IMG/VR virus record: IMGVR_UViG_3300021197_001949
Coordinates: 2,984-66,983 of that record
DNA: 64,000 bases
Source of the DNA: a virus
Strand: one strand, 5' to 3'
The notes beneath the pieces were generated by a model. The model was not told where the DNA came from and did not search any database. It saw only the letters and a program-made list of their open reading frames with translations. Both the position numbers and the translations under genes were made by a program. Each line of letters opens with the position of its first letter. Positions within the stretch are counted from its first letter, which is position 1. Positions 5,812 through 34,382 of this stretch are shown here, piece by piece.

Positions 5812-6129
5812 ATGTCCGACAAAGACCTAGTCAAGGAACTCAAAGCCGAACTCGCAGAAATCACAAAAGACCGTGATGACACTCTGGCGAAAATGAAATC
5901 AAAGGAGAGCCGGATCAAGCAGGTGTTGATCAAACTGGAACACAGGGAACAGGACGTACACAGTTGTGGACACAAGATAGGTGAGCAGAACAAGGAGATC
6001 GCGGACCTCAAGGCCAAGTTGGAGACCAAGAGCAAGTTGCTGGACGAGGCACTCGAAAAGATAAAAAACATACACAACGATTCCACGACAGAACTATCCC
6101 AAACAATAACAGATAGCGAACAACAATAG
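5812..6129 (+). CDS. coiled-coil hypothetical protein
   Basis: 105 aa heptad-rich K/E/L sequence with ATG start. Confidence 0.65.
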   Translation: MSDKDLVKELKAELAEITKDRDDTLAKMKSKESRIKQVLIKLEHREQDVHSCGHKIGEQNKEIADLKAKLETKSKLLDEALEKIKNIHNDSTTELSQTITDSEQQ

Positions 6130-6135
6130 TTGATT

Positions 6136-6557
6136 GTCAGAGACGGCTTACGCCATCTGAAACTTCGCTTACGCTCGTTTCTTTTTTTAACTTACGCAGT
6201 TGTAAAACTAAATGACGCATCTTTGCGTCGCCTGTGGTAGATGAGCAGTCACAATTCGGCTATTTCTAGCCGAACCGACTTGAACCCTGTGGTGAGTTCG
6301 CAGTCACTATACATCGCTACCGGAGTTGGGCGGTTGTGCTGTACCCATTTGCTCATTCATTACAACGCGAGCCCGTCAAACCCTTGTATAATAGTTCTTG
6401 GCGGACCTGGGGATTATCTTTTTCTAAGAGCCCCATCATTTTTTGCTGTCTGCATCTAAGGATTCACCTGTCGCCTTGTCGGCCGCATTTCCTTGCTCAC
6501 TGGTTGCGATGCTATGTTTGCCTGTTGGAAATTTTTGAGAAGTTTTGTTTGCCTATC
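6136..6557 (-). ncRNA. candidate large structured non-coding RNA (or RNA-primed origin)
   Basis: The longest gap lacking a credible gene in the window. Minus-strand GNRA hairpins TTCGGCTA-GAAA-TAGCCGAA and GATGGC-GTAA-GCCGTC (with G-U pair), a 22-nt bipartite repeat, and an upstream promoter-like TTGACC/TATAAACA. Confidence 0.6.
6231..6307 (+). repeat. bipartite direct repeat CCTGTGGT-N6-GCAGTCAC, two copies
   Basis: Copies at 6231-6252 and 6286-6307; the 33 nt between them contain a perfect 8-bp hairpin. Confidence 0.85.
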
Positions 6558-6614
6558 GCACTTGTTTATATGAGTTTTCTTTATAGGTCAATCTTTTTGG
6601 CTTTAAATACCACG

Positions 6615-7022
6615 ATGCATTGGACGTACCAAGGAAATAAAATTACCAACATGCCGGAAGATGTTGTGGGATTTGTTTATCTCATAACAAATACAACTAA
6701 CGGTAGGAAGTACATAGGCAAGAAATTGGCCAGGTTCAAACGATCTAGGCCACCACTCAAAGGCAGGAAGAACAAGCGTAGATACAAGGTGGATTCAGAC
6801 TGGCAGGACTACTATGGATCCAGCGATGATCTAACGATGGATGTGAATAAACTTGGTAAAGAAAAATTCACCAGGGAGATACTGTTTTGGTGTAGGTCCA
6901 AGGCGGAACTGTCATACGTGGAGGCACGTGAACAGTTTGCACGTAAGGTGCTTGAGTCAAACGATTACTACAACGGCCATATCCGTGTGAGGGTGCATGG
7001 AAAAGGGATTATAAAGTCTTAA
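6615..7022 (+). CDS. GIY-YIG family endonuclease (Seg-like catalytic domain)
   Basis: GFVYLITNTTNGRKYIGKK...YYGSS...FTREIL...YYN. Start placed at ATG 6615, 5 nt after TAAATA, rather than at 6336. Confidence 0.85.
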   Translation: MHWTYQGNKITNMPEDVVGFVYLITNTTNGRKYIGKKLARFKRSRPPLKGRKNKRRYKVDSDWQDYYGSSDDLTMDVNKLGKEKFTREILFWCRSKAELSYVEAREQFARKVLESNDYYNGHIRVRVHGKGIIKS

Positions 7023-21000: not shown

Positions 21001-21492
21001 AAATACAAAATTTTGTTTGGTTCAAATGCAGATGAACAACTACAGGCAACTTTCAAGGTTGTTAAAAATCCAAAGACCAATGTGTCAGATGCAGTGATCA
21101 AGACCAGAGTGATCGCCTCAATAAACGAATTCTTCGCACTAGACAACTGGGATTTTGGAGACACTTTTTACTTCACAGAATTGGCCGCTTACATACACAA
21201 TCAACTAGCACCAGACTTGTTGACAGCGGTTATTGTGCCCAACCAGTCAGGACAGGGTTTTGGGTCCTTGTTCCAACTTGACTCAGCGGCAGACGAAATT
21301 TTCATCAGTGGGGCCACCGTTGATGATGTGTCAATCATAACAGCACTGGGAGCCAACCAACTGGCGGCCTCCGGCACTGTGGTCACATCGACATCAACTG
21401 CCACGACGAACACCACGACAGGATCAGCAGTGTCAGGCTCTACTACAACAGGTTCCGGTTCAAGCACCGGCAGTAGTGGGTCAGGATACTAA
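18010..21492 (+). CDS. gp6: baseplate wedge subunit gp6-like
   Basis: ENFLETAERRNSVLRLARLINY, FGDGNF and SQNRMITAEDY motifs. Confidence 0.85.
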   Translation: MATTDRQNRLLVAEDWRKIYQAFQQADFKSYDFETLRRTMVAYLKENYPDDFNDFVESSEYVALIDLIAYISQALSFRVDLNARENFLETAERRNSVLRLARLINYNAKRNQPATGMLKIDSISTTQDVQDSTGTNLANQNIIWNDSANSNYREQFTAILNAANQSGQLFGNPRESGTIGGISTEVYTLSSNQLDLPIFKFQKSVGGVSRSFEIVPSTINDSDSIYESSPVPGTGLTYTYRTDGSGDSSNNTGFFFLFKQGTLQQSDFTVDTSVTNYVKPLDASNINNTDVWLYKLDQFGQLSESWTKVPSLSGNNAIYNSLSKAERNTYNVVTKNNDAIDLVFGDGNFSNIPLGSFRTYYRVSDNAKYAIQSSDIQNVQLTVPYTDANGAQQSLTMSISLKASVYNSAATESNDSIKEKAAQVYYSQNRMITAEDYQVVPLSASQEIVKVRSVNRSASGISRAKEILDPTGAYSNVSVFAEDGILYREESLQQFTFTFNNRSDVQSTIDTSVEAKLKEAYARQFYYLKYGTKDASTLSATWNSTTTSTNTNTGYFTSGGALVIGDFATSNMKFAKPGALVKFTSPDTRKFLNGTLVTSTTDNAEDRAWAKIGDVVLDGANGGVGNLESGVGPVTLADIIPNGSVVNAIIPNFTTSFSSTLETDLQDRIEAYEEFGLRYDVDSETWKVITSTNLSTSTVFDLAGAGSTTGTNADASWWFKFTNDGNTYTVQYRKLDYIFESESQNKFHYDVEEKIYDYTTGKSVKDTVKILKTNSIVSTGNSVGYPITWQVVDVVTEADGFQDNRKVKIGFFDADDDGVVDNPEIFDIYVEPTLSESTKFVFFEKYTSYDNIERFRPYASTNFVVAEKETDINLNTSTYTDGQLFYFYDSAEDVIKKYSSTTNTLSTTTDYTARKGRGSIDFQYKHHAGQETRIDPSVSNIVDVYLLERTYDNLFRIWLQEGGSKPTVSTADQLRINYSGTLNPLKSLSDQIIYHPVKYKILFGSNADEQLQATFKVVKNPKTNVSDAVIKTRVIASINEFFALDNWDFGDTFYFTELAAYIHNQLAPDLLTAVIVPNQSGQGFGSLFQLDSAADEIFISGATVDDVSIITALGANQLAASGTVVTSTSTATTNTTTGSAVSGSTTTGSGSSTGSSGSGY

Positions 21493-24400
21493 TGGCGGAC
21501 AATCCCACAAACGCATTAACAAATAACGAAGTTGTCAAACAGGGCACGAACGAGTACAGACGTACAGTACAGCACCTACCCGCTTTCTACAGGACGGACG
21601 CTAACCAGCGGTTCCTGGCCAGCACCATGGATCCGTTGGTACAGAAAGGTTCACTGGAGAGGCTGGATGGTTACATTGGTAGACAGGACGCATACACAAG
21701 GAGTGTCAGTGATAGATATATCACCGCAACAAGCAGGGACAGATTCGCATATCAGTTAGAACCTGCAGTCACATACACGGATAGAGACACAACGTCGGTG
21801 AATCCTGAAGATCAGGTCAAGTTCACAGGAACGTACGATGATTATATAAACCAGATAAAGTATCTGGGAGGCAAGGTCAACAACCACGACAGGCTCAACA
21901 AAGAGACCGTGTACAGTTGGAACCCAGCCATAGACTACGACAAATTAGTCAACTACAGAGAATACTACTGGATGCCGGATGGTCCTAGCTCTATTGAAAT
22001 TGATTCTGTTGGACCAAGTGTGGTAGCGGAATACAGTGTAAAAAACAACAGTCAATCAGCATACGAGTTCACACACAGGGAGAATGAGAACAATCCCATA
22101 CTGACACTATACAGAGGCAACACATACAAGTTCAGTGTGAATGCCAAAGGACACCCTTTCTGGATAATGACCGAACCCTACAAGAGCAAGGTTTCATTAG
22201 ACGGATCAACATCTACCATATTTGACACAGGTGTCACTAACAACGGTGCCGACGAAGGAACGGTCACATTCACCGTGCCCACGTCTGGTGCACCAGACAC
22301 TTTATACTACCAGTGTGGCAACCATGATGCCATGTACGGCATACTACAGATAAAAGATGCCACAAGCACCACAGCGATAAATGTCGAGGACGATATCATA
22401 GGGGTCAAGAATTACAGTATTAGAACTCTGGACCTATCAAACGGTATGAAGATAAAATTCACAAATTCCCTAGTGACAAGTTCTTATCAAGACAAGGAAT
22501 ACTACGTAGAGGGTGTTGGTGATGCCATAACATTAACCGATGTGGAGGATCTTATCACACCAGGCAGTTATGCCACTGAATCTACGCTACTGTATGATCA
22601 AGCAGGATACGATTCACGTCCATACGCCAAAGCGTTCTACACACCAGAAAACAAAGATTACATGACGATCAAGAGAGACTCACGTGATCAGAATGCCTGG
22701 TCAAGATACAACAGATGGTTCCATAAATCCGTCATAGAGGAAACTGCGAGGGTCGGTGGATTCACTCCCGTCCTTGATGAAGATGACAGAGCAAAGAGAC
22801 CGATCATAGAATTTGACTCTGGACTTGCATTATACAATCATGGCACTGTGGCCAAAAGATCCATCACACTGTATGACACAGTCACAACGGACGCATTCAG
22901 CACAGTGGTCAAACAGACAGGCTACATCATTGATGGACTGGCACTAGCAGACGGAATGAGAGTCATATTTGCGGCGGACACAGATCCAATAGTAAAGAAC
23001 AAGATATATGACGTCAACTTTGTGACAGCGGGAGATTCCACGCAAGTCATTAACTTGACCGAAGCGTCGGATGCCACACCCACCGCAAACGATTCAATTT
23101 TCATCGAATTTGGAACAAATAATCAAGGCAAATCTTTTTACTATGATTCAACAACAGAGACTTTCAAGGAAGCACAACAGAAAACAGGAGTAAATCAGCA
23201 ACCTCTGTTCGGTATGTGGGACAACAATCACATCTCGTTCGATGATGCCACAGCATATCCCAACTCAACCTTCGCAGGAGCAAAAGTGTTCGCTTTCGCA
23301 ACGTCGGACACGGCAACCAAGGACACAGTGTTGGGAATCAAAGTCAAGTACAACACAATCAACAATGTGGGCGACATAGTCTTTGAATCGGACCACACAT
23401 CGGGAACGTTCACTTACAAGGACGGTGCACAGACATTAACAAAAAATTTAGCAGAAGGCCATCTGCACTACACAACAGGAAGAGCAACACACAATTCACG
23501 TAGTGCCTGGATCAAAAGGACGACGGAAAACAAACAGCGTGTGATCAGGACTTTCATAGTCGACGCAACTGAGAAGCAGTTTTTCCCGATTGACTTCTAC
23601 AAGGATTCAGCGGAACTAACCGATCTTGAAGTATCAGTTTCTGTAAACGGTTCGCGTAAGACACTGACCACCGATTACACACTAGAAACAGGAACAAAAA
23701 ACAAATACGTAAAATTTAATACTGCCCTTGAAGTCGATGATCAGATCAGGATAGCAGGACACAGCAGTACTGACAAGATTGCTGAAAAGGGTATATACGA
23801 GATACCGGAAAATTTAGCGACAAACAGTCTCAACCAACAGTTAGGCACATTCACATTTGGACAGATACTGGCCCATGTCAGAGATATACTTGACAAGAAT
23901 CAAGATGTCACAGGGGCGATACCAGGAGTTTCGAATCTACGAGATAAACCAGATGCGAGATTGAAGGGCGGTAGCATACACCAACACGAAGGGCCATTGC
24001 TCCCAGCCATATTTGGGTTGGTGGATCAGAATTCCAACGTAACTTCATCGATAGATTATGTCAGCCAGGAATACGAGAAATGGTACAATGCTTTCTTGAC
24101 ACACGCCACAGGCACTGCTTACGAAGGCGTGGCCGCGGACAGAGTCGATGAAATTATAACAGCCATAACACCAGGAAGGAACAGCACGTTTCCATTCTTT
24201 TATGAGGACATGTTAGGGTGGGGAGAAAATGTTTCAACGAGATCGTACACAGTGATGGGATCATCTCAGACCGAGTATGCTCTCGACTCACAACACAACA
24301 TCACAACATTGAGCAATAGAGCAGTATACGTTTATCTCAATGACGTTCAGTTATTATTAGGAACAGATTACACTTTCAGCACAACAGACGATAGTGTCAA

Positions 24401-27400
24401 CATTAGCAAGGCATTGGCCGAAGGCGATAAGATCTTGATCAAAGATTACGCAGACACCACGGGCAGTTACATGCCACCGTCACCGACTAAACTGGGAATG
24501 TATCCCAAGTTCACACCGGAGACATTCACAGACACTACGTATCTCACAGACACAGCGGTTATCCGTAAGCACGACGGTTCCATAATCAAGGCGTATGGAG
24601 ATGAACGTGATGATTTAATATTAGAGTTGGAAAAAAGAATTTACAACAACATCAAGGTGACCTACGATGCCACTTTGGTAGACTTACACGATGTGTTGCC
24701 AAGTGCTTTCACATCAACGGAATACACGCTACAAGAAGTGGACGGGGTGATGGGACCTGATTTCTATCAGTGGGCAGGTCGCAACAATGTGCAGTACATC
24801 AACAACACAGCGTTCACAGAAGGATCACCATTTACGTACAACTATGCTAGATCAAAAGGCAGACTGATAAATGAAAACTTACCAGGATACTGGAGAGGCA
24901 TATACAAATATTTCTACGACACAGATGCTCCGCATGTCAGACCATGGGAGATGTTGGGTCATTCAGAGAAGCCTAGCACGTGGGACGCTACCTACGGAAC
25001 TGCTCCATACACATCAGGCAATGATGTCTTATGGAACGCGATAGCAACTGAGCCTGGCAGATACGGCAAGCCTTTGATCAGGAACTACCTACCTGTTGAT
25101 GCATCGGGTAACCTACTAGATCCATTGGCGGCGGGACTAGTTGACAATTTTGATATACCAGGAAGGCAGAATGCATGGAAGTTTGGCGATCAAGCACCAG
25201 CGGAGACGGCATGGAGGAGATCCAGTGCTTACCCATTCACGGTCATAAAGACATTGGTACTGACTAAACCGGCTAAGTTCTTCTCAAATTTATTTGATCC
25301 ATCCAGATTAACGACTAACGTTGCAGGCAACCAGATCAACACAGAGACTGGTATCAGGAACACACTGGCAACAGCGAAATATCATCTGGAAACAGAAACA
25401 AATACAGCAACAGGTGTAACGACAAGATACCAGACGGCAGGATATCAACCCTTTGTGATCAATTATTTGATATCAAGGAACCTAGACACTAAAACTTTTT
25501 ATTATGATAAAATGAAGAACTTATCTGTACAACTATCGTACAAGTTGGGCGGATTCACAGACAAAGCCAATATAAAGATCTTAACAGACAGCGTGTCTCC
25601 GGGATCTAAGTCAGGGTCAAAATTCATACCAGATGAAAACTACAAGATACTTTTCAGGACATCAAATCCTGTAGAGAGTTACCAATATTCTGGTGTGCTG
25701 ATCGAGTACAACACAGATATCAGCCAGGATGGATCTACATTACTGGGCGGATACAAGGTGTTGGGTTACAGCACTACCAAACCATATTTCAATTTCAACT
25801 ATCCGGTCAAGACCACGACGGCCACAGCGGTATCGATCGAGGGGTCGACAGTAGTCAGACAATACACTGCATACCAAGAAACCACGCAGACCATACCATA
25901 TGGTCACGTGTTTGACACCATACAGGACGTTACAGACTTCTTGTTTGGCTATGGACAATGGCTTGAATCACAAGGATTCCGATTCAACAAGTTCTCGAAC
26001 GAACTCAAAGAAACACTGAACTGGTCAAATGCTGTACGAGAATTTTTATTCTGGACCACACAGGAATGGGCTCCAGGATCAGCGATAACTGTTTCTCCGG
26101 CCGCTGATGGTTTCGAACTAGACACCAACAACAGCATTGTTGGGAAACTGAAGAACCTGGCAGGTGACTATTCACTACTAGACTCGGGAGGCAGGAAGAT
26201 AGACATCAGTGAGATATCAACCAAGCGAATTGGCAAGACTTTTGAACTGGGGATCAAGTCCGACACGGTTGGACTGTACAACATAGCACTGAACACCGTA
26301 CAGAAGGAACACGTACTGTTGTTCGACAACAGCACAGTGTTCGCTGACATCATTTATGATCCATTCACAGGATTCAGACAACAGAGACTGAAACTGGTGG
26401 GTTGGAAGACAGCAGGATGGAATGGAGACTACTACGCACCTGGCTTCGTATTTGACGCCGCACAGGTCACATACTGGACTGCCAACACAGACTACAGGAT
26501 CGGCGACAGCGTAGAGTACCAAGGCAAGTTCTACGTGGCAAAAACCAATCACAACTCGGGTGCCACTTTTGAAAAAACCAACTGGACACTCAAAGATGAG
26601 AAACCAGCACCACAGTTAATACCCAACTTCGAGTACAAGATAGCACAGTTCAACGACTTCTATGATTTAGAGACCAACAACTTCGACGAATCGCAACAGC
26701 AGTTGGCCCAGAGGCTCACAGGATACCAGTCTAGGGACTACCTGGAGAACCTTTTCGTCAATGACGTGTCGCAGTACAAGTTCTACCAAGGCTACATCAG
26801 GGAGAAGGGCACACAGAACGCCATAGACAAGATCTTGAAGGCCAAGTATGAGGGAGAGGACATCACGCTGGACCTGTATCCGGAATGGATGATTCGTACA
26901 GGTAACTTTGGTAACACAGATTCAATACAGAACATACAGATCACGTTGAAAGACGACGAGATCACGGCAAATCCACAGAGCATAGAGTTGTTGGACACAA
27001 CCAATGACACGGTAGAATATGCAAGATCAGATGCCATAGTCAAAGACAACTTCTACTACAAGCCAGTTGAGTACACGGCATCTACCACATTCCATAGATT
27101 GGACTACACCAAGGAAGGGGTCAGCAGGGACACAGCACAGGTCTTTAAGACCGCAGGGTATCCTCAACCACAACAGGTACAGCACACAGCGTTCAACATA
27201 GAAGAGATCCTCAACTTGGACATGAATGCTATATCAACCAATGATCTAATATGGGTTGCCAACAAAAGCAACAGGGATTGGGACGTTTTCAGGATCACGA
27301 GTGCAAGTATAAAGATAGCAGATCTACACTTGATAAACGATGCCTCACAGTTGGAGATCACGTTCACTGGCTCCCACAACCTGACGGCAGGGTCAACGAC

Positions 27401-30400
27401 CACACAGGCAGATTATTTTGCAATATCAAACAGCGAGGAAGCAACACTTAATGGTGTGTACCAGGTCAGTGCAACGCCGGACCACAAGACAGTGATCATA
27501 GATTATGACGGCAATGTGGGATTCATTCCCGCACTTGAGGACGGGTCAACGGCAGACAGTTACGGAAACATCTACAAGTTCGTGTCTGTGAGATTAGCGT
27601 CAATGGACAACGTCAACGACCTGATAGATTTTGAAAATTACACAGACAAGGATGACGCTATAGAACAGCCGGGAGACAAAGTGTTCGCAGATGCGGACAG
27701 TTCAGGATTGTGGCGTGTTTACGAGAAGCAAGATCCGTACACCACAGCGATAGTCTTATCGCCAGACGCCAGCACAGCAGAGCAGGAGTTTGGACACAGG
27801 ATCGTGGCACGTAATGACGGAAGGACGGTGATTGCGTCCGCACCAGGCAAAGGCCAAGGTGAGGTACACTTCCTGTTTAGATCTTCCACAGAAGCAGGAG
27901 CAACATTACAGACGCAGTCAACAGCCACCATGACAGACAACAACGACAACACCAGCAGGCTGGGAGAGTCTCTGTCGATCAGTACTGACGAGAACTTTGT
28001 GGTCGCAGGAGCACCATACACCAATGCAGTTGGCGCCGATGGAAGCACAAGATTTATTGATTCAGGGCTGGTCAAGGTCTACATATGGGATCAAAGCACA
28101 TTCAAGTATGGAATACTAGACACAGTGAGAGCACCTACAGATGGTTCCACGTTGAATGAGAATGCCAACTTTGGGTGGGCACATAAGGTTTCGGAACCTG
28201 GCGCTAGTTCTGTTAGATCAACCCCTGACAAATACATGTTCGTATCAGCACCAGGTCATGACAACGACAAGGGTCGGGTGTACATGTACACGTGGGGAAT
28301 TGGTGCAGACGGATCAACATACGACACTTGGACACAGGACTACACCATAGAAGCACCGGCGGGTGGGTCAGGACAGAGATTTGGACACAGGATACAGGCC
28401 AACGACAACGGTGATATTCTGGCAGTAAGTTCACTTGCACCAGGCAATGCAGGCAAGGTAGAGATATTCATCAAGACATCACAAAGCAATGATGGTAGCA
28501 CACAGAATTCATTCGCACTGGCACAGACCTTGACAGGTGTGGCGTCAGACGGGTCAAGCATAAACACAGCGTTTGGTGAATCCATAGCAATGAGCAAGGA
28601 TGGCACTACACTTATCATAGGTGCACCAGGTGTTGATGGCACTACACATCCAGATGCGGGGGCCATATACTACTACAAATGGAACGCAGACGATTCAACA
28701 AACACTTACACCTTACAACAGACCATAACTGCACCTGAATCAAGTACCAACATCAAGTTTGGTACAAGTTTAGATATTAATAATAATGGTACAAGGATTA
28801 TAATAGGTGCAGAAAAATTTGCGAGCTCTAGGGAGATGAAATTTGACGCAGGCGAGACGACCTTTGATCTACAGGATACTACTATAGTTGACAGCAACAC
28901 AGAATCCGGAGGTGCGTTCACGGCAACCATGTACAACACAAAATACATCGTGGATGACAGATTGATGACAGACAATGTCACAGCAGACGATGACTTTGGA
29001 AGAGGCGTTTGCATGATTGACAATTCCGTTTTCGTTGGAGCACCAAAAGACGACGGCAACACAACATCAGACGGAAGCACCAAGGTAGTAAACGATGGTA
29101 CTGTCGCGTGTTACGATCTCACAGTGAATGGTCAATATGCATGGAATAACCTAGTCACTGAAACGGCGTTGATGGACACTGATAAACTGGGCAAAGTTTT
29201 TGAATTCAATAAAAAAACAAAACAATTACAAGACTATTATGATTTGTATGATCCTATAAAAGGCAGAATACTTGGTTTAGCAGACAGGGAGATCGACATC
29301 AAGACTGCGTGGGATCCAGCGACCTACAACGTGGGGGACAAAGCCGACCTTAAAACACCATGGGCGGAGACACACGTAGGAGAGGTATGGTGGGATCTAT
29401 CAACGGTGAAATGGTTGTGGTACGAACAAGACACACAGGAATACAAGCAAAATCATTGGGGACAGACGTTCCCAGGTTCAAGCATAGATGTTTATGAATG
29501 GGTCGAGTCAAGGCTCCTACCGAGTGAATGGGACAACAGGGTCGAAGGAACAAGTTCAACGATATCAGGCACAGCATTATATGGTGATGACTCTCGATAC
29601 ACAGTGGTTCAGAAATATGATTCGAGATTAGACACATTTGTCAACTATTACTACTACTGGGTCAAAGACAAGACAACATTGCCAACAGGCCACCATACAA
29701 GGGGTGACAGGCACGCTCACCAACACAGGAAGAACACAGTGGCCTTTGTTGCCAACTTGATCACAAACCCGAAGGCGTTTGACACCAAATATTATTCTGT
29801 CACAGACACTAACAAATTATTATTGAATAATGTTACAAATTTAACCAATGACGATATAGTACTGAATGTAGATATAAGAACAAATACGTTCGAGGGAGAT
29901 TCACACAGCATATGGAAATTAGTCAAGGAAGGCGATGCTGACTACAGGCCAGGACTTCAGACAGAGACACGTTGGTGGGATTCGTTGATAGGTAAAAATT
30001 CTGCAGGTGACTTAGTTCCAGATGTGAACCTGCCGGTAAATGAGAGATACGGCAACAACATCAGACCAAGACAGAGTTGGTATGTTGACAGGTATGATGC
30101 CCTGAAAGAGATCATAGATTACGCAAACAGTGTCTTGAAGAACAATCAATTGGTGGGACAGGTCAATCTAACAAACTTGGATTCCCAAGATCCACAACCC
30201 ACAGCACAGAGTGGCGAATGGGACGCTTCGGTGGAAACATATGCTGATTTGACTTACATAAACACAGCAGATCTTTCAGGAACAGTGAATTACTTGGTCA
30301 CGGCAGACGAGACAGCCAACAACTACTGGGCGATATACACCTGGGATGGCACGGAATGGTCAAGGACCAAAATACAAACTTACAACACTTCTGCATACTG

Positions 30401-33400
30401 GAGTTACACTGATTGGTACAAGACAGACGGTGACATGGTGCATGATGACAATACCAAGATCGACAAACAGGTCACGTACCAGTACGAATTGGACACACTG
30501 GATCTTGCGATAGGTAAACATGTGAAAGTGACAAGTGCGGACACAGGTGGCTGGAAACTGTTTATGAGGACAGCAGACGGATGGGAAAATGTTGGGACAG
30601 AAAATGGGACCATCAGGTTAAGCACTAAACTTTACGACTACAGCCAGGACGGATCAGGATTCGCAGGACAGGACAATTTCGATGACAACTTCTTTGATCA
30701 GGAACCAAGCATAGAGACCAGGAAGGTTTTGACTGCACTGAGAGATGATCTATTCATTAATGACCTAGCAGGTGAATACAACACATTGTTTTTTACAGGA
30801 CTGAGAAAAGTACTTTCTGAACAGACATATGTGGACTGGATGTTTAAGACATCGTTTATAAATGCAAAAAATTCTGTGAGGCAACTGGACCAGAGGAAGA
30901 CCTACACAACAGGCACTGACAGTTGGATCGAGAGTTACATCAATGAAGTGAAGCCATTCCATACAAAATTGAGGGAGTACAAACTTGCCTATGACAAGAC
31001 TGAAACACAAGACGGTATATTCTCTGACTTTGATAATCCAACTTTTTATGATGCCACAACAGGCAAAATCAGGAGTCTCAACGTTGATTTAGACACAGCG
31101 AAATTGACGGAGTATCCGTATCAGATGTGGTATGACTACCATAAGAAATATGTGCAGTCGATAACTGTCACAGCAGGTGGCTCAGGATACGAAGTGGCAC
31201 CGACAGTGACTATTCTAGGCGGAACTACGGGATCAACGGGACCTTTCCAGATACAGGCGACTAGTTCCTCTGGTGCTACAAGCGGACAGTTCGGTTACTA
31301 CTATCCCTTATTCACTAGTAAGCAACAGGCAGAGATATATGACACACAGAATTCAGGCTCAGGCACAACCAAAACTTATACTTTTGACGGGTACACCGAC
31401 ACATTCTATGGTCCTACAGCATCAACCAGTGAAGCACAGGGCGATAAATCAGGCACGTTCAAGATATATGTTACACCAACGACCACTGCGGCAACTGCCA
31501 CTGCTATCATACAAGGTGGAGCAGTAACAAAAATAAATGTGACAGGTAAAGGTGCGAACTACACAGCAACACCGACGGTTGTTATATCAGGTGGTAAGAC
31601 AGACGGAACGACACCAACAGACACTGCCAAAGCATATGCCAACCTAAACAACGACCTTGTAAGAGACTTTGACACAACTATAAAATTTGACAGGGTTTCA
31701 AGCACTTCACGTGTTGTTGATTGGACGGCATCAACAGCATACGCTTACAACGATTTACTAAGATACAACAATCAACTGTACAAAGTTACAAACGCATTCA
31801 CTTCAAGCACAGACTTCGATGACAACATAGGAAGTGTGTACAAGGTGTACGGTGACGAGACAGGACTTACAGCGGCAGACAGGACGAAAGGTTTCTACAC
31901 GCCAGGCTCTGAAATGCCAGGTAATGAACTAGATCAATTGATGACAGGTGTTGACTATGGTGGTACCATGGTTACAGGCCTACTATTCAACCAAGAAGCA
32001 GGTTGGGACAAAGCGGGTTGGTATGACTTCCCATGGGACAACTACGGAGACTCGAGAGTCAAGGCGTTCAGGGCAGATGGTTCAACAGCGGCGTACACAT
32101 TTGACATTGCACCAGCAACTTCAGAAGTATATCAGGTATACTTGACACAAGACGACAGCACAAGGAAAAAATTATCAGATGTAATCAGGGGTGACGGGTC
32201 TACAGCGACTTTCACAATCAGTGAGACACCAGAAGAGAACGCATTAGTTGAGTTCATCCCTTTCGATGACGACGGTGTGCTTACTCCGACAGATGATAGG
32301 ACATTGGACTCTATAGTCAAAGGTGGACTTTTCACATCAGCGTTGGGCCATGCACCGAGTGATATAGTTTTAGAAGGCGACGAGTTTGTATCTCCGGACA
32401 CAAGTTATGCACCTGAAGAAACTGTGCCAGGCCAGTTGTTTGATACATTGGACATAAAAGTTTACACGTCACCGGAGTCTGGCGTGCCATTCATCAGTGA
32501 GATGAATCACAGAGGTAACGGAAGCACAACAACATTCAGCATAGGTGACTATCCTGGCTCACTTGGGTCAGTGACTGTTGCAGTTGACGGTGTGGTACAG
32601 AAAGGCAGTGCATTAGATTCAACAGTGTCTGATTATTCAATCAATGTTGCAAACAAAACAATTACATTTGACACGGCACCTGCAAATCACACACAGATAT
32701 CAACGAAAGTGTTTGCTATATCCGGAGAAAATTACAGAGTGTTGAATTCATTCACAGGAGACGGGAGTACTACTACATTCCTTACTTCAACTAGAGGTGA
32801 ATTTAATTTAGATTCAACATCTTCTGACATCTATGTCACAGTGGACGGTGTGCCAACAACTGCATACTCGACTACCACTTCGGCCAACACAATCACAGTC
32901 GTGTTCGACTCGGCTCCTGAAGCAAGTTCTTATATACAGATAGCCGGTTTCAACAAGTCAGCAACATCTACACGAAGTTATGCAAGTGTCAGAAACCAAT
33001 CCATAACATATGATGGTTCAACAAACAGATACACTTTGACATATCCACCTGGTGCAATAGGACCGTTCTCTGGTCTTACAACGGTAGAAGTCAATGGTAG
33101 GGTGCTACGTGGACCAGACAACACTTATTACTTGGGAGATGGAAGCACTTACACGTATGGTGTGGTTTCAGGATTGGAAGATGACTCAACGGTGGATCCT
33201 GCTAAAACTATTTCGAGTGCAAGTGAAGTACAGGTTTTCGTAAACGGTGTCAAGAAAGATTTGAGCACACATTACACTGTGGATGTTGGGAATCAAAATG
33301 TTGAATTTGTTACTGCACACGTACCGACTACTACGGATGTGATATGTATTTCAACCTTAGTTGATCATCAGTATTTCAATGAGGGGACTGATATAATATT

Positions 33401-34382
33401 AGTACCAAGTGCAATTACATCACCTTACAGTTTGAGTTCTAGTGATGTATTATCAGTCACGACATTCAACAACGCTCTAGGCATGAAGCAAAGAAGAGAA
33501 GTGTTAGAAGGCAGAAGTAATGGTGTGTTCAAACTAAGATTTGACACCCTTGATGCAGGATACACGTATGTTTGGTTGAATGGACAACAATTAATACAGG
33601 CAAGTGATTACACGGTCAGTGGAAACACAATAACAATCAATGGCAGAACGATCTCATCATCCGACAGGCTTGATGTGATGTACTTTGCGGTGGATTCAGC
33701 GGTAAATGCCACGGGATTCAGGATATTCAAAGACATGCTTAACAGGACGTTCTACAAACGTATATCAAAAACAGCAACAACAAAATTAACACTGGACATG
33801 ACAGAAAGCACACAGACATTTACTGTGGAAGATGGTAGTGTATTGCCTACACCAGATATTGCCAGCAACACCCCAGGCGTTGTGTTCATAGACAAAGAAA
33901 GAATTGAATATTTTATCAAGACAGACAACGTGTTGAGTCAATTAAGACGTGGAACTCTTGGAACAGGAATTAAGGAGCATGGATCAGGCACGGAAGTGGT
34001 AGATGCGTCTGGTACTCAAACCATCCCTTATGCGGACACAGTGTACACCAACACCTTCACAGGTGACGGCAGTACGTTGACGTTTGCACTATCACAAGCA
34101 CCATCATCCGCTAGTGAGTTAGACATATTCATTGGTGGCCAACGATTGTTGCTCACTAGCGAGGATGGATCGACTATTAACTATTCTGTGGACGGAAGCA
34201 CAACAGCAGTAACATTGAGCTCTGCACCTGCTTCAGGAACACAGGTTAAAATTTTACACAAGAAAGGACAGGTATGGTACACGGCACTAGATGGTAATCC
34301 AGCAGATGGTAAAGGATTACAGGCTTCCGGCACACAACAGGCTAAATTCATTGCTAACGAGCCTACAAACTCACCTGAATAA
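21492..34382 (+). CDS. giant (4296 aa) baseplate wedge initiator / virion structural protein, gp7-like
   Basis: Follows gp6. Contains a cupredoxin-like motif, two CBM5/12-like W..Y...D.V.Y modules, FG-GAP-like propeller repeats, YIREKGTQNAI, YINEVKPFHTKLR, and GDGSTxTF repeats. Confidence 0.75.
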   Translation: MADNPTNALTNNEVVKQGTNEYRRTVQHLPAFYRTDANQRFLASTMDPLVQKGSLERLDGYIGRQDAYTRSVSDRYITATSRDRFAYQLEPAVTYTDRDTTSVNPEDQVKFTGTYDDYINQIKYLGGKVNNHDRLNKETVYSWNPAIDYDKLVNYREYYWMPDGPSSIEIDSVGPSVVAEYSVKNNSQSAYEFTHRENENNPILTLYRGNTYKFSVNAKGHPFWIMTEPYKSKVSLDGSTSTIFDTGVTNNGADEGTVTFTVPTSGAPDTLYYQCGNHDAMYGILQIKDATSTTAINVEDDIIGVKNYSIRTLDLSNGMKIKFTNSLVTSSYQDKEYYVEGVGDAITLTDVEDLITPGSYATESTLLYDQAGYDSRPYAKAFYTPENKDYMTIKRDSRDQNAWSRYNRWFHKSVIEETARVGGFTPVLDEDDRAKRPIIEFDSGLALYNHGTVAKRSITLYDTVTTDAFSTVVKQTGYIIDGLALADGMRVIFAADTDPIVKNKIYDVNFVTAGDSTQVINLTEASDATPTANDSIFIEFGTNNQGKSFYYDSTTETFKEAQQKTGVNQQPLFGMWDNNHISFDDATAYPNSTFAGAKVFAFATSDTATKDTVLGIKVKYNTINNVGDIVFESDHTSGTFTYKDGAQTLTKNLAEGHLHYTTGRATHNSRSAWIKRTTENKQRVIRTFIVDATEKQFFPIDFYKDSAELTDLEVSVSVNGSRKTLTTDYTLETGTKNKYVKFNTALEVDDQIRIAGHSSTDKIAEKGIYEIPENLATNSLNQQLGTFTFGQILAHVRDILDKNQDVTGAIPGVSNLRDKPDARLKGGSIHQHEGPLLPAIFGLVDQNSNVTSSIDYVSQEYEKWYNAFLTHATGTAYEGVAADRVDEIITAITPGRNSTFPFFYEDMLGWGENVSTRSYTVMGSSQTEYALDSQHNITTLSNRAVYVYLNDVQLLLGTDYTFSTTDDSVNISKALAEGDKILIKDYADTTGSYMPPSPTKLGMYPKFTPETFTDTTYLTDTAVIRKHDGSIIKAYGDERDDLILELEKRIYNNIKVTYDATLVDLHDVLPSAFTSTEYTLQEVDGVMGPDFYQWAGRNNVQYINNTAFTEGSPFTYNYARSKGRLINENLPGYWRGIYKYFYDTDAPHVRPWEMLGHSEKPSTWDATYGTAPYTSGNDVLWNAIATEPGRYGKPLIRNYLPVDASGNLLDPLAAGLVDNFDIPGRQNAWKFGDQAPAETAWRRSSAYPFTVIKTLVLTKPAKFFSNLFDPSRLTTNVAGNQINTETGIRNTLATAKYHLETETNTATGVTTRYQTAGYQPFVINYLISRNLDTKTFYYDKMKNLSVQLSYKLGGFTDKANIKILTDSVSPGSKSGSKFIPDENYKILFRTSNPVESYQYSGVLIEYNTDISQDGSTLLGGYKVLGYSTTKPYFNFNYPVKTTTATAVSIEGSTVVRQYTAYQETTQTIPYGHVFDTIQDVTDFLFGYGQWLESQGFRFNKFSNELKETLNWSNAVREFLFWTTQEWAPGSAITVSPAADGFELDTNNSIVGKLKNLAGDYSLLDSGGRKIDISEISTKRIGKTFELGIKSDTVGLYNIALNTVQKEHVLLFDNSTVFADIIYDPFTGFRQQRLKLVGWKTAGWNGDYYAPGFVFDAAQVTYWTANTDYRIGDSVEYQGKFYVAKTNHNSGATFEKTNWTLKDEKPAPQLIPNFEYKIAQFNDFYDLETNNFDESQQQLAQRLTGYQSRDYLENLFVNDVSQYKFYQGYIREKGTQNAIDKILKAKYEGEDITLDLYPEWMIRTGNFGNTDSIQNIQITLKDDEITANPQSIELLDTTNDTVEYARSDAIVKDNFYYKPVEYTASTTFHRLDYTKEGVSRDTAQVFKTAGYPQPQQVQHTAFNIEEILNLDMNAISTNDLIWVANKSNRDWDVFRITSASIKIADLHLINDASQLEITFTGSHNLTAGSTTTQADYFAISNSEEATLNGVYQVSATPDHKTVIIDYDGNVGFIPALEDGSTADSYGNIYKFVSVRLASMDNVNDLIDFENYTDKDDAIEQPGDKVFADADSSGLWRVYEKQDPYTTAIVLSPDASTAEQEFGHRIVARNDGRTVIASAPGKGQGEVHFLFRSSTEAGATLQTQSTATMTDNNDNTSRLGESLSISTDENFVVAGAPYTNAVGADGSTRFIDSGLVKVYIWDQSTFKYGILDTVRAPTDGSTLNENANFGWAHKVSEPGASSVRSTPDKYMFVSAPGHDNDKGRVYMYTWGIGADGSTYDTWTQDYTIEAPAGGSGQRFGHRIQANDNGDILAVSSLAPGNAGKVEIFIKTSQSNDGSTQNSFALAQTLTGVASDGSSINTAFGESIAMSKDGTTLIIGAPGVDGTTHPDAGAIYYYKWNADDSTNTYTLQQTITAPESSTNIKFGTSLDINNNGTRIIIGAEKFASSREMKFDAGETTFDLQDTTIVDSNTESGGAFTATMYNTKYIVDDRLMTDNVTADDDFGRGVCMIDNSVFVGAPKDDGNTTSDGSTKVVNDGTVACYDLTVNGQYAWNNLVTETALMDTDKLGKVFEFNKKTKQLQDYYDLYDPIKGRILGLADREIDIKTAWDPATYNVGDKADLKTPWAETHVGEVWWDLSTVKWLWYEQDTQEYKQNHWGQTFPGSSIDVYEWVESRLLPSEWDNRVEGTSSTISGTALYGDDSRYTVVQKYDSRLDTFVNYYYYWVKDKTTLPTGHHTRGDRHAHQHRKNTVAFVANLITNPKAFDTKYYSVTDTNKLLLNNVTNLTNDDIVLNVDIRTNTFEGDSHSIWKLVKEGDADYRPGLQTETRWWDSLIGKNSAGDLVPDVNLPVNERYGNNIRPRQSWYVDRYDALKEIIDYANSVLKNNQLVGQVNLTNLDSQDPQPTAQSGEWDASVETYADLTYINTADLSGTVNYLVTADETANNYWAIYTWDGTEWSRTKIQTYNTSAYWSYTDWYKTDGDMVHDDNTKIDKQVTYQYELDTLDLAIGKHVKVTSADTGGWKLFMRTADGWENVGTENGTIRLSTKLYDYSQDGSGFAGQDNFDDNFFDQEPSIETRKVLTALRDDLFINDLAGEYNTLFFTGLRKVLSEQTYVDWMFKTSFINAKNSVRQLDQRKTYTTGTDSWIESYINEVKPFHTKLREYKLAYDKTETQDGIFSDFDNPTFYDATTGKIRSLNVDLDTAKLTEYPYQMWYDYHKKYVQSITVTAGGSGYEVAPTVTILGGTTGSTGPFQIQATSSSGATSGQFGYYYPLFTSKQQAEIYDTQNSGSGTTKTYTFDGYTDTFYGPTASTSEAQGDKSGTFKIYVTPTTTAATATAIIQGGAVTKINVTGKGANYTATPTVVISGGKTDGTTPTDTAKAYANLNNDLVRDFDTTIKFDRVSSTSRVVDWTASTAYAYNDLLRYNNQLYKVTNAFTSSTDFDDNIGSVYKVYGDETGLTAADRTKGFYTPGSEMPGNELDQLMTGVDYGGTMVTGLLFNQEAGWDKAGWYDFPWDNYGDSRVKAFRADGSTAAYTFDIAPATSEVYQVYLTQDDSTRKKLSDVIRGDGSTATFTISETPEENALVEFIPFDDDGVLTPTDDRTLDSIVKGGLFTSALGHAPSDIVLEGDEFVSPDTSYAPEETVPGQLFDTLDIKVYTSPESGVPFISEMNHRGNGSTTTFSIGDYPGSLGSVTVAVDGVVQKGSALDSTVSDYSINVANKTITFDTAPANHTQISTKVFAISGENYRVLNSFTGDGSTTTFLTSTRGEFNLDSTSSDIYVTVDGVPTTAYSTTTSANTITVVFDSAPEASSYIQIAGFNKSATSTRSYASVRNQSITYDGSTNRYTLTYPPGAIGPFSGLTTVEVNGRVLRGPDNTYYLGDGSTYTYGVVSGLEDDSTVDPAKTISSASEVQVFVNGVKKDLSTHYTVDVGNQNVEFVTAHVPTTTDVICISTLVDHQYFNEGTDIILVPSAITSPYSLSSSDVLSVTTFNNALGMKQRREVLEGRSNGVFKLRFDTLDAGYTYVWLNGQQLIQASDYTVSGNTITINGRTISSSDRLDVMYFAVDSAVNATGFRIFKDMLNRTFYKRISKTATTKLTLDMTESTQTFTVEDGSVLPTPDIASNTPGVVFIDKERIEYFIKTDNVLSQLRRGTLGTGIKEHGSGTEVVDASGTQTIPYADTVYTNTFTGDGSTLTFALSQAPSSASELDIFIGGQRLLLTSEDGSTINYSVDGSTTAVTLSSAPASGTQVKILHKKGQVWYTALDGNPADGKGLQASGTQQAKFIANEPTNSPE

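What the first reader, a model, noticed from the sequence alone, without database searches (positions are those of the whole stretch)
6136..6557. Candidate ~420-nt structured non-coding RNA with its own promoter
Seen: a ~485-nt gap (6130-6614) without a credible gene in an otherwise tightly packed genome. Hairpins close GNRA loops only on the minus strand: TTCGGCTA-GAAA-TAGCCGAA (6274-6255) and GATGGC-GTAA-GCCGTC, whose U-G pair would be an A-C mismatch on plus. Other elements are GACGCA-AAGA-TGCGTC, a GGGG...CCCC stem around 6406-6434, a T-loop-like GGTTCAAGTC, and a duplicated GTGACTGC-N6-ACCACAGG module. A minus-strand promoter-like TTGACC (6591-6586) / TATAAACA (6570-6563) points into the gap, with no gene behind it. 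I do not recognise tmRNA, RNase P, 6S, tRNA or group I/II intron signatures. Inference: a large ornate phage RNA (GOLLD/ROOL-like in character), or a primer RNA for a replication origin.
Basis: partly seen in the sequence, partly recalled or inferred. Interest (0 to 1): 0.85.

Follow-up and report, generated by a model that had tools for sequence, protein, structure and literature searches.

The report
Large phage RNA with twin heptamers
The gap holds a real, roughly 400-base folded RNA gene that is conserved in hundreds of uncultured aquatic phage contigs and carries two always-identical seven-letter tags whose partner and purpose are still unknown.

Summary
Window 6136-6556, read on the minus strand, is a conserved, highly structured non-coding RNA.

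- **Structure:** on 80 distinct homologues, a 78-pair model with a 9-bp pseudoknot is paired in 96.5% of cells, against 32-37% when partners are slid. 40 pairs change on both sides.
- **Strand:** G-U cells outnumber A-C cells 631 to 65. The main hairpin loop is GNRA in 80 of 80 homologues.
- **Not coding:** there is no 3-base periodicity, and the 72-aa ORF is intact in only 9 of 80.
- **Rfam:** no family matches the window. In 7 of 19 relatives tested, the orphan motif Polynucleobacter-1 (RF01718) forms the 5' domain of the same RNA.
- **New feature:** two heptamers (6293-6287 and 6238-6232) are identical within each RNA in 121 of 127 parsed sequences. They differ widely between RNAs, with 21 variant pairs and an invariant A at position 6.
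- **Neighbours:** a domain-only GIY-YIG gene lies beside the RNA in 166 of 188 loci, though not always.

Function is unknown. My best guess is a trans-acting RNA whose twin heptamers read an outside partner. I tested leader, template-jumping, guide-RNA, tRNA-binding and coding readings, and none was supported.

The parts
6136..6556 (-). Structured non-coding RNA gene, about 400-420 nt. The ends are approximate: the 5' end is inferred from where conservation starts after the -10-like element, the 3' end from the last covarying hairpin.
   Evidence: Matches in 48 of 80 syntenic loci at 73-96% identity. 164 nhmmer hits, of which 108 are full length. The 78-pair model is 96.5% paired on 80 sequences.
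6586..6591 (-). TTGACC, a -35-like hexamer upstream of the RNA.
   Evidence: Position confirmed. Exact in 20 of 37 aligned relatives and TTGAC[ACT] in 24 of 37. Not called by the promoter scan.
6563..6570 (-). TATAAACA, a -10-like or late-promoter-like element. It is either TATAAA after a 15-nt spacer or TAAACA after 17 nt.
   Evidence: spacer 15 + TATAAA in 16 rows; spacer 17 + TATATA, TAAACA or TATAAT in 6 rows. Function not shown.
6452..6512 (-). 5' domain. P1 is 6512-6508 / 6456-6452. It encloses P2 (6493-6490 / 6462-6459) and a small variable hairpin (6483-6481 / 6475-6473).
   Evidence: Helices 1-3 are 96%, 92% and 79% paired, with 3, 2 and 3 pairs changed on both sides. Coordinates.
6408..6435 (-).
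   Evidence: Helices 4 and 5 are 98.5% and 100% paired. 3 of 5 and 2 of 2 pairs change on both sides.
6370..6407 (-). P4, an 11-bp hairpin whose apical loop (6393-6385) is the 5' strand of the pseudoknot.
   Evidence: Helix 6: 9 of 11 pairs change on both sides, 96.7% paired.
6305..6313 (-). 3' strand of the 9-bp pseudoknot, which pairs with 6393-6385.
   Evidence: Found by mutual information and a helix scan. Helix 7 is 98.6% paired; 4 pairs change on both sides (for example CG 39 / UA 39). It is kept with a wholly different sequence in L067 (read by eye).
6327..6347 (-). Invariant hairpin. A 5-bp stem closes the loop UACAGCACAACC. The 19-mer core motif is 6346-6328.
   Evidence: The 19-mer is invariant in 37 of 37 rows. 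An exact-pattern scan found at least 120 viral contigs. The variant GGTACAGGWCAACCGCC found at least 120 more.
6287..6307 (-). Module 1: GUGACUGC-GAACUC followed by heptamer 1 (ACCACAG, 6293-6287).
6252..6277 (-). P9, an 11-bp hairpin with a GNRA tetraloop.
   Evidence: The loop is GAAA 59, GCAA 11, GUAA 6, GAGA 3 and GCGA 1 of 80. Helix 11 is 98.9% paired.
6232..6254 (-). Module 2: GUGACUGC-UCAUCU followed by heptamer 2 (ACCACAG, 6238-6232).
6214..6229 (-). P10, a variable and dispensable hairpin.
   Evidence: Helix 12 is 87% paired. The region is deleted in several members.
6141..6181 (-). 3' domain. P11 is 6181-6177 / 6163-6159 with an inner GC/GC pair and a GUAA loop. P12 is 6158-6153 / 6146-6141.
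   Evidence: Helices 13-15 are 96-99% paired. No U-run follows on the minus strand.
6615..7022 (+). GIY-YIG nuclease gene of 135 aa, catalytic domain only. This is the usual neighbour and is divergent here.
   Evidence: PF19835 at 4.2e-37, covering residues 3-123. Divergent neighbour in 118 of 127 loci of the window's clade. Same-strand upstream neighbour in 48 of 61 loci of the sister clade.
6602..6609 (+). TTTAAATA, a T4-late-promoter-like motif 5 nt before the GIY-YIG start codon.
   Evidence: Present in 32 of 37 aligned relatives. Similar TAAATA motifs lie 5-16 nt before many start codons in the window. The T4 late consensus TATAAATA is recalled, not tested.

Best explanation
The gap holds a stand-alone gene for a large, pseudoknotted, non-coding RNA of about 400 nt, read from the minus strand. 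It belongs to a family found in uncultured aquatic T4-like phage contigs that are probably from very large genomes.

Shown:
- The RNA, its strand and its fold.
- A variable 5' domain, a nearly invariant core hairpin, a loop-to-strand pseudoknot and a GNRA hairpin.
- Two homologous single-stranded modules. Each ends in a heptamer that is identical to the other copy within one RNA but differs between RNAs.

Inferred mechanism:
- The folded core is a scaffold, for a protein or for the RNA's own chemistry.
- It presents the two heptamers in equivalent positions as specificity elements.
- Both heptamers pair with the same short sequence in an outside nucleic acid: two sites, two copies, or the two strands of a symmetric site.
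- Heptamer and partner therefore change together.

The RNA acts in trans. It is not simply the leader or trailer of one neighbouring gene.
For: Conservation:
- Matches in 48 of 80 syntenic loci at 73-96% DNA identity, even where the adjacent baseplate protein is only 52-58% identical.
- At least 120 plus at least 120 viral contigs carry the core motif.
- The core model R1 reports 71 matches at E <= 1 over the 100 searched second-scan loci.

Structure:
- RNAalifold: 28 of 62 pairs show compensatory change.
- 78-pair model: 96.5% paired against 32-37% slid; 665 compensatory cells against 56-92 slid; 0 of 500 shuffles reach the observed score.
- Sister clade: 89.8% paired against 43-56% slid, with 27 of 31 pairs changed on both sides. 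That alignment is fitted to the model.

Strand:
- GU/UG cells 631 against AC/CA 65. Pairing is 96.5% on this strand and 87.3% on the complement.
- The P9 loop is GNRA in 80 of 80. A small hairpin swaps UNCG (36) with GNRA (35) loops.

Not coding:
- Power at period 3 ranks 71st of 205.
- The 72-aa ORF is intact in 9 of 80, and the segment length is not a multiple of 3 in 39 of 80.

Twin heptamers:
- Identical in 73 of 80 RNAs of the window's clade and in 121 of 127 across clades. The other 6 differ only at the last base.
- 21 variant pairs, all with A at position 6.
- The 6-nt spacers before the two copies stay different from each other, so recombination between the copies does not explain the identity.

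Independence from neighbours:
- The RNA is intact where the downstream p256 gene is absent: the window, and 33 of 111 loci.
- It is intact in 9 of 127 loci without the GIY-YIG gene.
- It also lies in unrelated contexts in L217 and L272.
Against: - No partner for the heptamers was found. I looked inside the RNA +-200 nt, in the flanks, in two partial genomes of 139 and 171 kb and in the GIY-YIG mRNA.
- Transcription, strand and ends are not shown. The public metatranscriptome data are contigs, which cannot show them.
- No intrinsic terminator follows the RNA on the minus strand. In 78 of 111 loci a same-strand gene starts about 21 nt downstream. In the sister clade the GIY-YIG gene lies directly upstream on the same strand. 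Co-transcription as a UTR therefore remains possible.
- Identity of two short segments could also serve a copying or jumping process, or a co-evolving protein, rather than base pairing.
Confidence: 0.5

Rival explanations
1. The RNA is a cis-acting untranslated region. It would be a 5' leader (riboswitch-like or T-box-like sensor) of the downstream ATE_C/FemAB-like gene p256, and/or a 3' trailer of the GIY-YIG gene. The heptamers would be specifier-like elements (a triplet plus a conserved A) that read a tRNA.
For: - p256 starts about 21 nt after the RNA on the same strand in 78 of 111 loci.
- p256 resembles aminoacyl-tRNA-dependent transferases. Atlas neighbours carry ATE_C. 3 of 27 family members hit PF04377 (best 1.2e-07) and 2 hit Acetyltransf_6.
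- In the sister clade the GIY-YIG gene lies on the same strand directly upstream in 48 of 61 loci.
- Position 6 of every heptamer variant is A. I recall that a purine follows the specifier codon in T-boxes.
- No terminator follows the RNA.
Against: - The window and 33 of 111 loci lack p256 downstream, yet keep the full RNA with compensatory changes.
- p256 is absent from the window's 67-kb record, which is only about 16% of a genome.
- In L217 and L272 the neighbours are unrelated (redoxin, phosphorylase).
- Rfam's T-box model does not match.
- All seven positions stay identical between the two copies, not only a triplet.
- As anticodon-loop complements, many variants would need a C at position 37. 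This rests on reasoning and on tRNA rules I recall.
- tRNA genes beside the RNA in L206 and L217 (Ile-TAT, Met-CAT, Leu-TAA) do not match its heptamer AACAGAA.
Confidence: 0.15
2. The two identical heptamers are matched jump sites that flank a 47-63-nt template. A polymerase copies the unit, and the nascent strand re-anneals at the other copy, giving tandem-repeat DNA or RNA. DRT2 ncRNAs do this with their ACA-1/ACA-2 motifs.
For: - In form this is the arrangement described for DRT2: identical short motifs at both ends of the template, needed for template jumping (PMC11100668, passages read).
- The heptamers keep identity while their sequence drifts.
- Structured elements flank and lie within the unit.
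Against: - No RVT_1 reverse transcriptase in 5 large records of 131-197 kb (0 of 5; the control genomes did give hits). None was seen next to the RNA.
- Unit length is 47-63 nt with no multiple-of-3 bias (35, 53 and 39 for the three residues).
- The concatemer is open in only 24 of 127 (RNA sense) and 23 of 127 (copy sense), so there is no neo-like gene.
- The records are 38-55% complete, so a polymerase elsewhere is not excluded.
Confidence: 0.07
3. The RNA is a guide or specificity subunit for the adjacent domain-only GIY-YIG nuclease. The two identical heptamers would pair with the two strands of a symmetric DNA site.
For: - The nuclease is 135 aa, and PF19835 covers residues 3-123, so no DNA-binding domain is visible.
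- It is the nearest known neighbour in 118 of 127 plus 48 of 61 loci.
- Two identical guides are what a palindromic target would need (reasoning).
Against: - Homologues of the nuclease at 58% and 50% identity occur in Methylophilales phage Melnitz and Synechococcus phage S-SRM01, whose complete genomes give no R1 match.
- The RNA occurs without the nuclease nearby.
- The phage's own DNA does not avoid the heptamer: 19 seen against 13.8 expected.
- Seven-base guides are very short.
Confidence: 0.06
4. The region works at the DNA level: a replication-origin primer with iteron-like repeats, or matched recombination cores. Alternatively it is a decayed or small protein-coding gene.
For: - Identity between direct repeats is what iterons or crossover cores show (general knowledge).
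- AT skew in the gap resembles that of minus-strand genes.
- A 72-aa plus-strand ORF and a 35-aa minus-strand ORF exist in the window.
Against: - Strand-specific G-U pairs (631 against 65), GNRA/UNCG loop swapping and a covarying pseudoknot point to a folded RNA.
- No period-3 signal. The ORF is intact in 9 of 80, and length is off-frame in 39 of 80.
- There are only two repeats. The arms around the heptamers are not symmetric.
Confidence: 0.05

Closest known systems
Polynucleobacter-1 RNA motif (Rfam RF01718; Weinberg et al. 2010, PMC2864571, where I saw only the table row)
   Same: - In 7 of 19 relatives tested it scores 84-117 bits (gathering threshold 37).
- In each it lies 42-57 nt 5' of the conserved core on the same strand, so there it is the 5' domain of the same RNA.
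- It is also an orphan motif from fresh-water and estuary sequence.
   Different: - The window's RNA does not match it, even at E <= 10.
- Neither do the three relatives of the window's clade that I tested (L002, L056, L043).
- The Rfam model is 141 nt. It lacks the invariant hairpin, the pseudoknot and the twin-heptamer modules.
- The 2010 table calls it probably cis-regulatory. The only paper in the library that names it is that one.
GOLLD / ROOL and other large ornate bacterial and phage RNAs
   Same: - Several hundred nucleotides long, with many covarying helices, pseudoknots and GNRA loops.
- Phage-borne, of unknown function, and sometimes near tRNA genes (L206 and L217).
- The properties of GOLLD and ROOL are recalled. 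For 10.1101/2024.12.08.627333 I saw only the listing and the start of its abstract.
   Different: - No Rfam model of these families matches.
- Nothing like the twin identical heptamers is known to me for them (recalled).
DRT2 template ncRNA (ACA-1/ACA-2 template jumping)
   Same: A structured, pseudoknotted ncRNA with two identical short motifs bounding a segment (PMC11100668, passages read).
   Different: - No reverse transcriptase was found.
- The motifs are 7 nt rather than 3 nt.
- The unit is 47-63 nt with no frame constraint and no open concatemer.
- It is carried by a phage, not by a host defence locus.
Regulatory sRNAs with duplicated seed motifs (for example staphylococcal RNAIII or RsaE; recalled)
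   Same: Several identical single-stranded motifs in one RNA, used to pair with targets.
   Different: - This RNA is far larger and more conserved in fold.
- Its seeds are not C-rich anti-Shine-Dalgarno motifs.
- No target was found.

Membership tests
Rfam RF01718 Polynucleobacter-1 | Covariance-model score at or above the gathering threshold (37 bits) | tested here: not met
   The window gives no match at gathering or at E <= 10 over 5900-6800. Met instead in 7 of 19 relatives' loci, next to the core.
The family defined here (core model R1, built from 65 sequences including the window) | P4 hairpin, invariant UACAG..CAACC hairpin, GNRA hairpin and two GACUG...CUC/UCU + heptamer modules in this order | tested here: met
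   The window is a seed sequence, so it matches by construction. Independent matches: 71 at E <= 1 over the 100 searched loci of the second scan, plus L099, L102, L127 and L081.
Group I intron | Match to Rfam Intron_gpI, and flanking exons that restore an ORF or RNA gene | tested here: not met
   No Rfam match. On the minus strand the RNA is flanked by the antisense of GIY-YIG and the antisense of a coiled-coil ORF, or in relatives by the start codon of p256.
tRNA / tmRNA / RNase P / 6S | ARAGORN or Rfam model match | tested here: not met
   ARAGORN finds 0 genes in the window. No Rfam match.
GOLLD / ROOL / HEARO / OLE / raiA | Rfam model match | tested here: not met
   No match in the window or in 24 distinct relatives' loci.
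T-box leader | Rfam T-box match; specifier codon followed by a purine; terminator/antiterminator with a UGGN bulge | tested here: not met
   No Rfam match and no terminator. Only the 'triplet plus A' resemblance holds, which is inconclusive alone.
DRT2-type template ncRNA | Adjacent reverse transcriptase | tested here: not met
   RVT_1 in 0 of 5 large records that carry the RNA. The neighbours are other families.
DRT2-type template ncRNA | Identical short motifs at both ends of the copied unit | tested here: met
   121 of 127 RNAs have identical heptamers 47-63 nt apart. This is a resemblance of form only.
DRT2-type template ncRNA | Concatenated unit gives a stop-free reading frame | tested here: not met
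   Open in 24 of 127 (RNA sense) and 23 of 127 (copy sense). No multiple-of-3 bias.
Protein-coding gene | Conserved ORF and 3-base periodicity of variation | tested here: not met
   The 72-aa ORF is intact in 9 of 80. Period-3 power ranks 71st of 205.

The most novel reading that the evidence does not exclude
The RNA is a programmable specificity module. Its twin heptamers are a pair of identical guides, reset again and again during phage evolution. They would direct an effector, possibly the adjacent GIY-YIG nuclease that has no DNA-binding domain, to a symmetric or duplicated nucleic-acid target. Alternatively they would act as matched jump sites for repeat synthesis. Either would be a new kind of RNA-directed system carried by large phages.
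Probability: 0.12. Interest if true: 0.95.

Novelty: new variant of a known kind. Interest (0 to 1): 0.72.

Why it matters
- **Abundance:** the RNA family is common in uncultured aquatic phages. At least 240 viral contigs were found in two capped scans, so the number of hits I could see was limited.
- **Conservation:** it is better conserved than the proteins around it.
- **Link to Rfam:** it ties an orphan Rfam motif from 2010 to a much larger RNA of about 400 nt.
- **A testable handle:** the twin heptamers stay identical inside each RNA while differing between RNAs. That is the signature of a specificity element. It gives a direct experiment: change one copy, change both, and look for what binds.
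- **If the partner is a nucleic acid:** the RNA could be a compact natural re-targeting device.
- **If not:** the family is still a good candidate for structure determination among large phage RNAs.

Tried and rejected
**Coding gene: rejected**.

**Known RNA family for the window: none**, at Rfam gathering threshold or at E <= 10. No tRNA or tmRNA.

**Cultured phages**
- blastn of the window RNA and of the L067 RNA against 50,697 phage records gave no match.
- R1 gave no match in the complete genomes of Melnitz and S-SRM01.
- R1 gave weak hits in Atu_ph07, fHe-Yen9-03, Phosso and PA5oct (E 2.8e-4 to 0.38). These lack the invariant hairpin, so I did not count them.

**Prokaryote genomes**
- The 15-base pattern hit at least 120 places, which chance alone would give in 596 Gb.
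- 0 of the 100 places I tested match R1. I did not test the other 20.

**Partner of the heptamers: none found**
- No complement inside the RNA +-200 nt.
- Flanks: own reverse complement 63 against 73 for control heptamers. The same-strand excess (197 against 95) reflects common coding words.
- No extended complementary site in G003 or G004.
- GIY-YIG mRNA: only wobble-rich matches to a constant UUUGUUU that does not change with the heptamer.
- No self-avoidance of the heptamer in the window.

**tRNA link**
- No tRNA genes in G004 (139 kb). G003 carries Leu, Arg and Ser.
- The tRNAs near the RNA in L206 and L217 do not match its heptamer.

**Template jumping for a gene: rejected**.

**T-loop resemblance:** the segment is not conserved.

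**A long-range GCGU/ACGC helix** proposed by RNAalifold competes with the local P10 hairpin and never varies. I left it out of the model.

**Metatranscriptomes**
- Four runs from three studies, all kept as assembled contigs, cover the RNA region. One example is a 188-nt contig over 6451-6637 with 6 differences.
- Summed contig depth is highest over 6212-6615. Contigs cannot show transcription, strand, ends or level, and the conserved RNA attracts relatives' contigs.
- I draw no conclusion from this.

**Tools and sources that were closed**
The supplement of PMC2864571 probably describes Polynucleobacter-1 and its neighbouring genes. The tables of PMC10690425 may list this RNA among 10,000 candidates. 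I saw neither. In the main text of PMC10690425 a term search found no mention of an endonuclease-linked or T4-like RNA.

**Not in print, as far as searched:** searches found no paper describing this RNA or twin heptamers.
Full report
**What is there**

The window comes from a T4-like phage contig. It carries a T4-type portal (PF07230) and a baseplate protein (PF12322). The record is 66,983 bases and is rated about 16% complete. Other records that carry the same RNA are 131-197 kb and rated 38-55% complete. I infer from this that the genomes are very large.

Between the stop of a coiled-coil ORF at 6129 and the start of a GIY-YIG gene lies a gap with no credible gene. The GIY-YIG gene runs 6615-7022 on the plus strand. 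It encodes 135 aa, and PF19835 covers residues 3-123.

**Is it conserved?**

I fetched 80 loci that encode relatives of the baseplate protein.
- 48 of them hold the gap sequence at 73-96% DNA identity.
- This includes loci where the baseplate protein is only 52-58% identical.
- A 19-base stretch is invariant in 37 aligned copies.
- A profile search then found 164 copies in the 198 loci held. 108 were full length, and 79 of those were distinct.
- A variant of the core motif, seen in distant copies (L067, L081), hit another 120 or more contigs.
- A covariance model of the core (R1, 178 positions) gave 71 matches at E <= 1 over the first 100 of those loci.

**Is it a folded RNA, and on which strand?**

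RNAalifold on 37 copies predicted 62 pairs, of which 28 show compensatory change. Mutual information and a helix scan on 80 distinct copies added a pseudoknot. The apical loop of a long hairpin (window 6393-6385) pairs with 6313-6305.

The resulting 78-pair, 15-helix model gave these counts on the 80 sequences:

| Measure | Model | Partners slid by 1-3 columns |
|---|---|---|
| Cells paired | 96.5% | 32-37% |
| Compensatory cells | 665 | 56-92 |
| Pairs changed on both sides | 40 | 8-18 |

None of 500 shuffles reached the observed values.

The core helices also hold in the second clade. There 89.8% of cells are paired against 43-56% slid, and 27 of 31 pairs change on both sides. That alignment is fitted to the model, which favours it.

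The strand is the minus strand:
- G-U cells number 631, against 65 A-C cells.
- Pairing would fall to 87.3% on the complement.
- The main hairpin loop is GNRA in 80 of 80.
- A small hairpin alternates between UNCG (36) and GNRA (35) loops.

The window's own fold is better than shuffles on the minus strand (z = -2.51) but not on the plus strand (z = -1.17).

The region is not coding:
- Variation has no period of three (rank 71 of 205).
- The 72-aa plus-strand ORF is intact in 9 of 80 copies.
- The segment length is off-frame in 39 of 80.

**The twin heptamers**

Each module follows a helix and reads GUGACUG(C), a short spacer, then seven bases. The spacer ends in ACUC in the first module and AUCU in the second.
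- In the window both heptamers are ACCACAG (6293-6287 and 6238-6232).
- Within the window's clade the two copies are identical in 73 of 80 RNAs, across nine variant pairs.
- In the second clade the heptamers are quite different (GGAUGAA, AGAUGAA, AGAUAAU, ACGAAAU, AACAGAA and others), yet again the same in both modules.
- Over all clades, 127 of 135 distinct core sequences could be parsed. 121 of the 127 have identical copies, and the other 6 differ only at the last base.
- There are 21 variant pairs, and position 6 is A in all of them.
- My parser picks the best-matching pair among the few CTC- or TCT-anchored candidates, which favours identity slightly.
- The spacers in front of the two copies stay different from each other. 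Homogenisation by recombination is therefore an unlikely cause.

No column of the RNA covaries with the heptamers in a Watson-Crick way.

**Neighbours**

Window's clade:
- The GIY-YIG gene is the nearest known gene on the RNA's 5' side, on the opposite strand, in 118 of 127 loci with enough flank.
- On the 3' side, 78 of 111 loci have a 256-aa gene (p256) on the same strand, starting about 21 nt after the RNA.
- 19 loci have the coiled-coil ORF there, as in the window. 13 have a 73-aa ORF, and 1 has none.

p256 has no direct Pfam or PHROG hit. Its atlas neighbours carry ATE_C, and 3 of 27 family members hit ATE_C (best 1.2e-07). It is probably an aminoacyl-tRNA-dependent transferase-like protein. 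It is absent from the window's record.

Second clade:
- The GIY-YIG gene lies on the RNA's own strand directly upstream in 48 of 61 loci.
- Rad50 is there in 5 loci, and nothing known in 8.

A third group (L217, L272) has unrelated neighbours: redoxin, and a phosphorylase-family protein. L206 and L217 have tRNA genes nearby.

So the RNA keeps its place and orientation at the junction of the recombination and baseplate gene blocks. The GIY-YIG gene was inverted in the window's lineage. No single neighbour is obligatory.

**Known families**

Rfam gives nothing for the window. In relatives it gives a clear hit. Polynucleobacter-1 (RF01718, 141 nt) scores 84-117 bits in 7 of 19 loci tested. Each hit lies 42-57 nt 5' of the R1 core on the same strand.

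That motif was listed in 2010 as a probable cis-regulatory RNA from Burkholderiales and fresh-water or estuary sequence. I saw only the table row, and it is the only paper in the library that names the motif. It is thus the 5' domain of one subclade of a larger RNA. The window's 5' domain has a different helix layout and does not match.

No cultured phage holds the RNA by blastn. The complete genomes of Melnitz and S-SRM01 hold GIY-YIG homologues (58% and 50% identity) but give no R1 match.

**How might it work?**

A 400-nt RNA with a near-invariant hairpin loop, a pseudoknot and stable tetraloops looks like a scaffold or catalyst rather than a simple antisense RNA. The twin heptamers behave like a specificity element: free to change, but only together.

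The simplest reading is that both heptamers pair with the same short sequence in an outside partner. I could not find that partner:
- not in the RNA itself;
- not in the flanks;
- not in 310 kb of two partial genomes;
- not in the GIY-YIG mRNA, where apparent matches are wobble pairs to a constant U-rich codon run and do not covary.

The phage does not avoid the heptamer in its own DNA.

A tRNA-reading model (triplet plus conserved A, next to an aminoacyl-tRNA-type enzyme) is attractive. It does not explain why all seven positions match, and nearby tRNA genes do not fit.

A template-jumping model copies the logic shown for DRT2. But there is no reverse transcriptase in 5 large records, and no frame or open-reading constraint on the unit.

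A guide role for the GIY-YIG nuclease is weakened by RNA-free phages that keep the nuclease.

**Expression**

Contigs from four metatranscriptome libraries of three studies cover the region. Contigs cannot show strand, ends or level, and DNA may be present in such libraries.

It is only partly conserved: TTGACC is exact in 20 of 37 aligned relatives, with a 15- or 17-nt spacer to a TA-rich hexamer. The consensus scan did not call it.

On the other strand, TTTAAATA sits 5 nt before the GIY-YIG start in 32 of 37. It resembles the TAAATA motifs close to many start codons in this phage.

**Verdict**

The 'large ornate phage RNA' reading is right. The origin-primer alternative has no support.

The RNA is a new, much larger relative of an orphan Rfam motif. 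Its function is unknown. The twin heptamers are an unusual and experimentally tractable feature.

Noticed in passing
L081 4360-4493 (-), L295 411-543 (+), and L255, L257, L211, L227, L238: Rfam Polynucleobacter-1 (RF01718) matches at 84-117 bits. Each match lies 42-57 nt 5' of the conserved core on the same strand. The orphan 2010 motif therefore appears to be the 5' domain of a longer RNA.
   Followed up: partly
window 6615-7022 compared with L067, L081 and 48 of 61 second-clade loci: The small GIY-YIG gene lies on the RNA's strand directly upstream in the sister clade. In the window's clade it is inverted and divergent. In Methylophilales phage Melnitz its homologue follows the ribonucleotide reductase small-subunit gene with no RNA. 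I recall that T4 denA sits in that position.
   Followed up: partly
L002 5863-6633 (-) and 77 other loci: A 256-aa gene starts about 21 nt after the RNA. It is a distant ATE_C / FemAB-like (aminoacyl-tRNA transferase-type) protein. It is absent from the window's record.
   Followed up: partly
window, upstream of many start codons (for example 18010, 36624, 17554, 34392, and 706 on the minus strand): TAAATA-type motifs, like the T4 late promoter, lie only 5-16 nt before start codons. This suggests very short leaders on late genes.
   Followed up: no
window 21492-34382 (+): A single ORF of 4296 aa follows one of 1160 aa. I did not examine either.
   Followed up: no
L002 7598-7828 (-): A 76-aa ORF matches the histone H1-like protein Hc1 (PF07432, 2.6e-11). 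It lies between the GIY-YIG and Rad50 genes in relatives.
   Followed up: no
L206 5475-5651 and 9679-9754; L217 1177-1353 and 5381-5456: In a third group of contigs the RNA core lies inside a cluster of tRNA genes (Ile-TAT, Met-CAT, Leu-TAA). Its neighbours there are a redoxin and a WYL_2 protein, not the GIY-YIG gene.
   Followed up: partly
L342 (Agrobacterium phage Atu_ph07 465363-465486) and L343-L345: The core model gives weak matches (E 2.8e-4 to 0.38) in four cultured giant phages. These keep a hairpin and GACUG-like modules but lack the invariant hairpin. They may be chance or very remote relatives.
   Followed up: partly
window 6544-6556 and 6516-6524 (minus strand): AGGCAAAC occurs twice about 30 nt apart at the 5' edge of the RNA, and three times in L014 and L023. 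These could be protein sites in the shared control region or part of the RNA.
   Followed up: no
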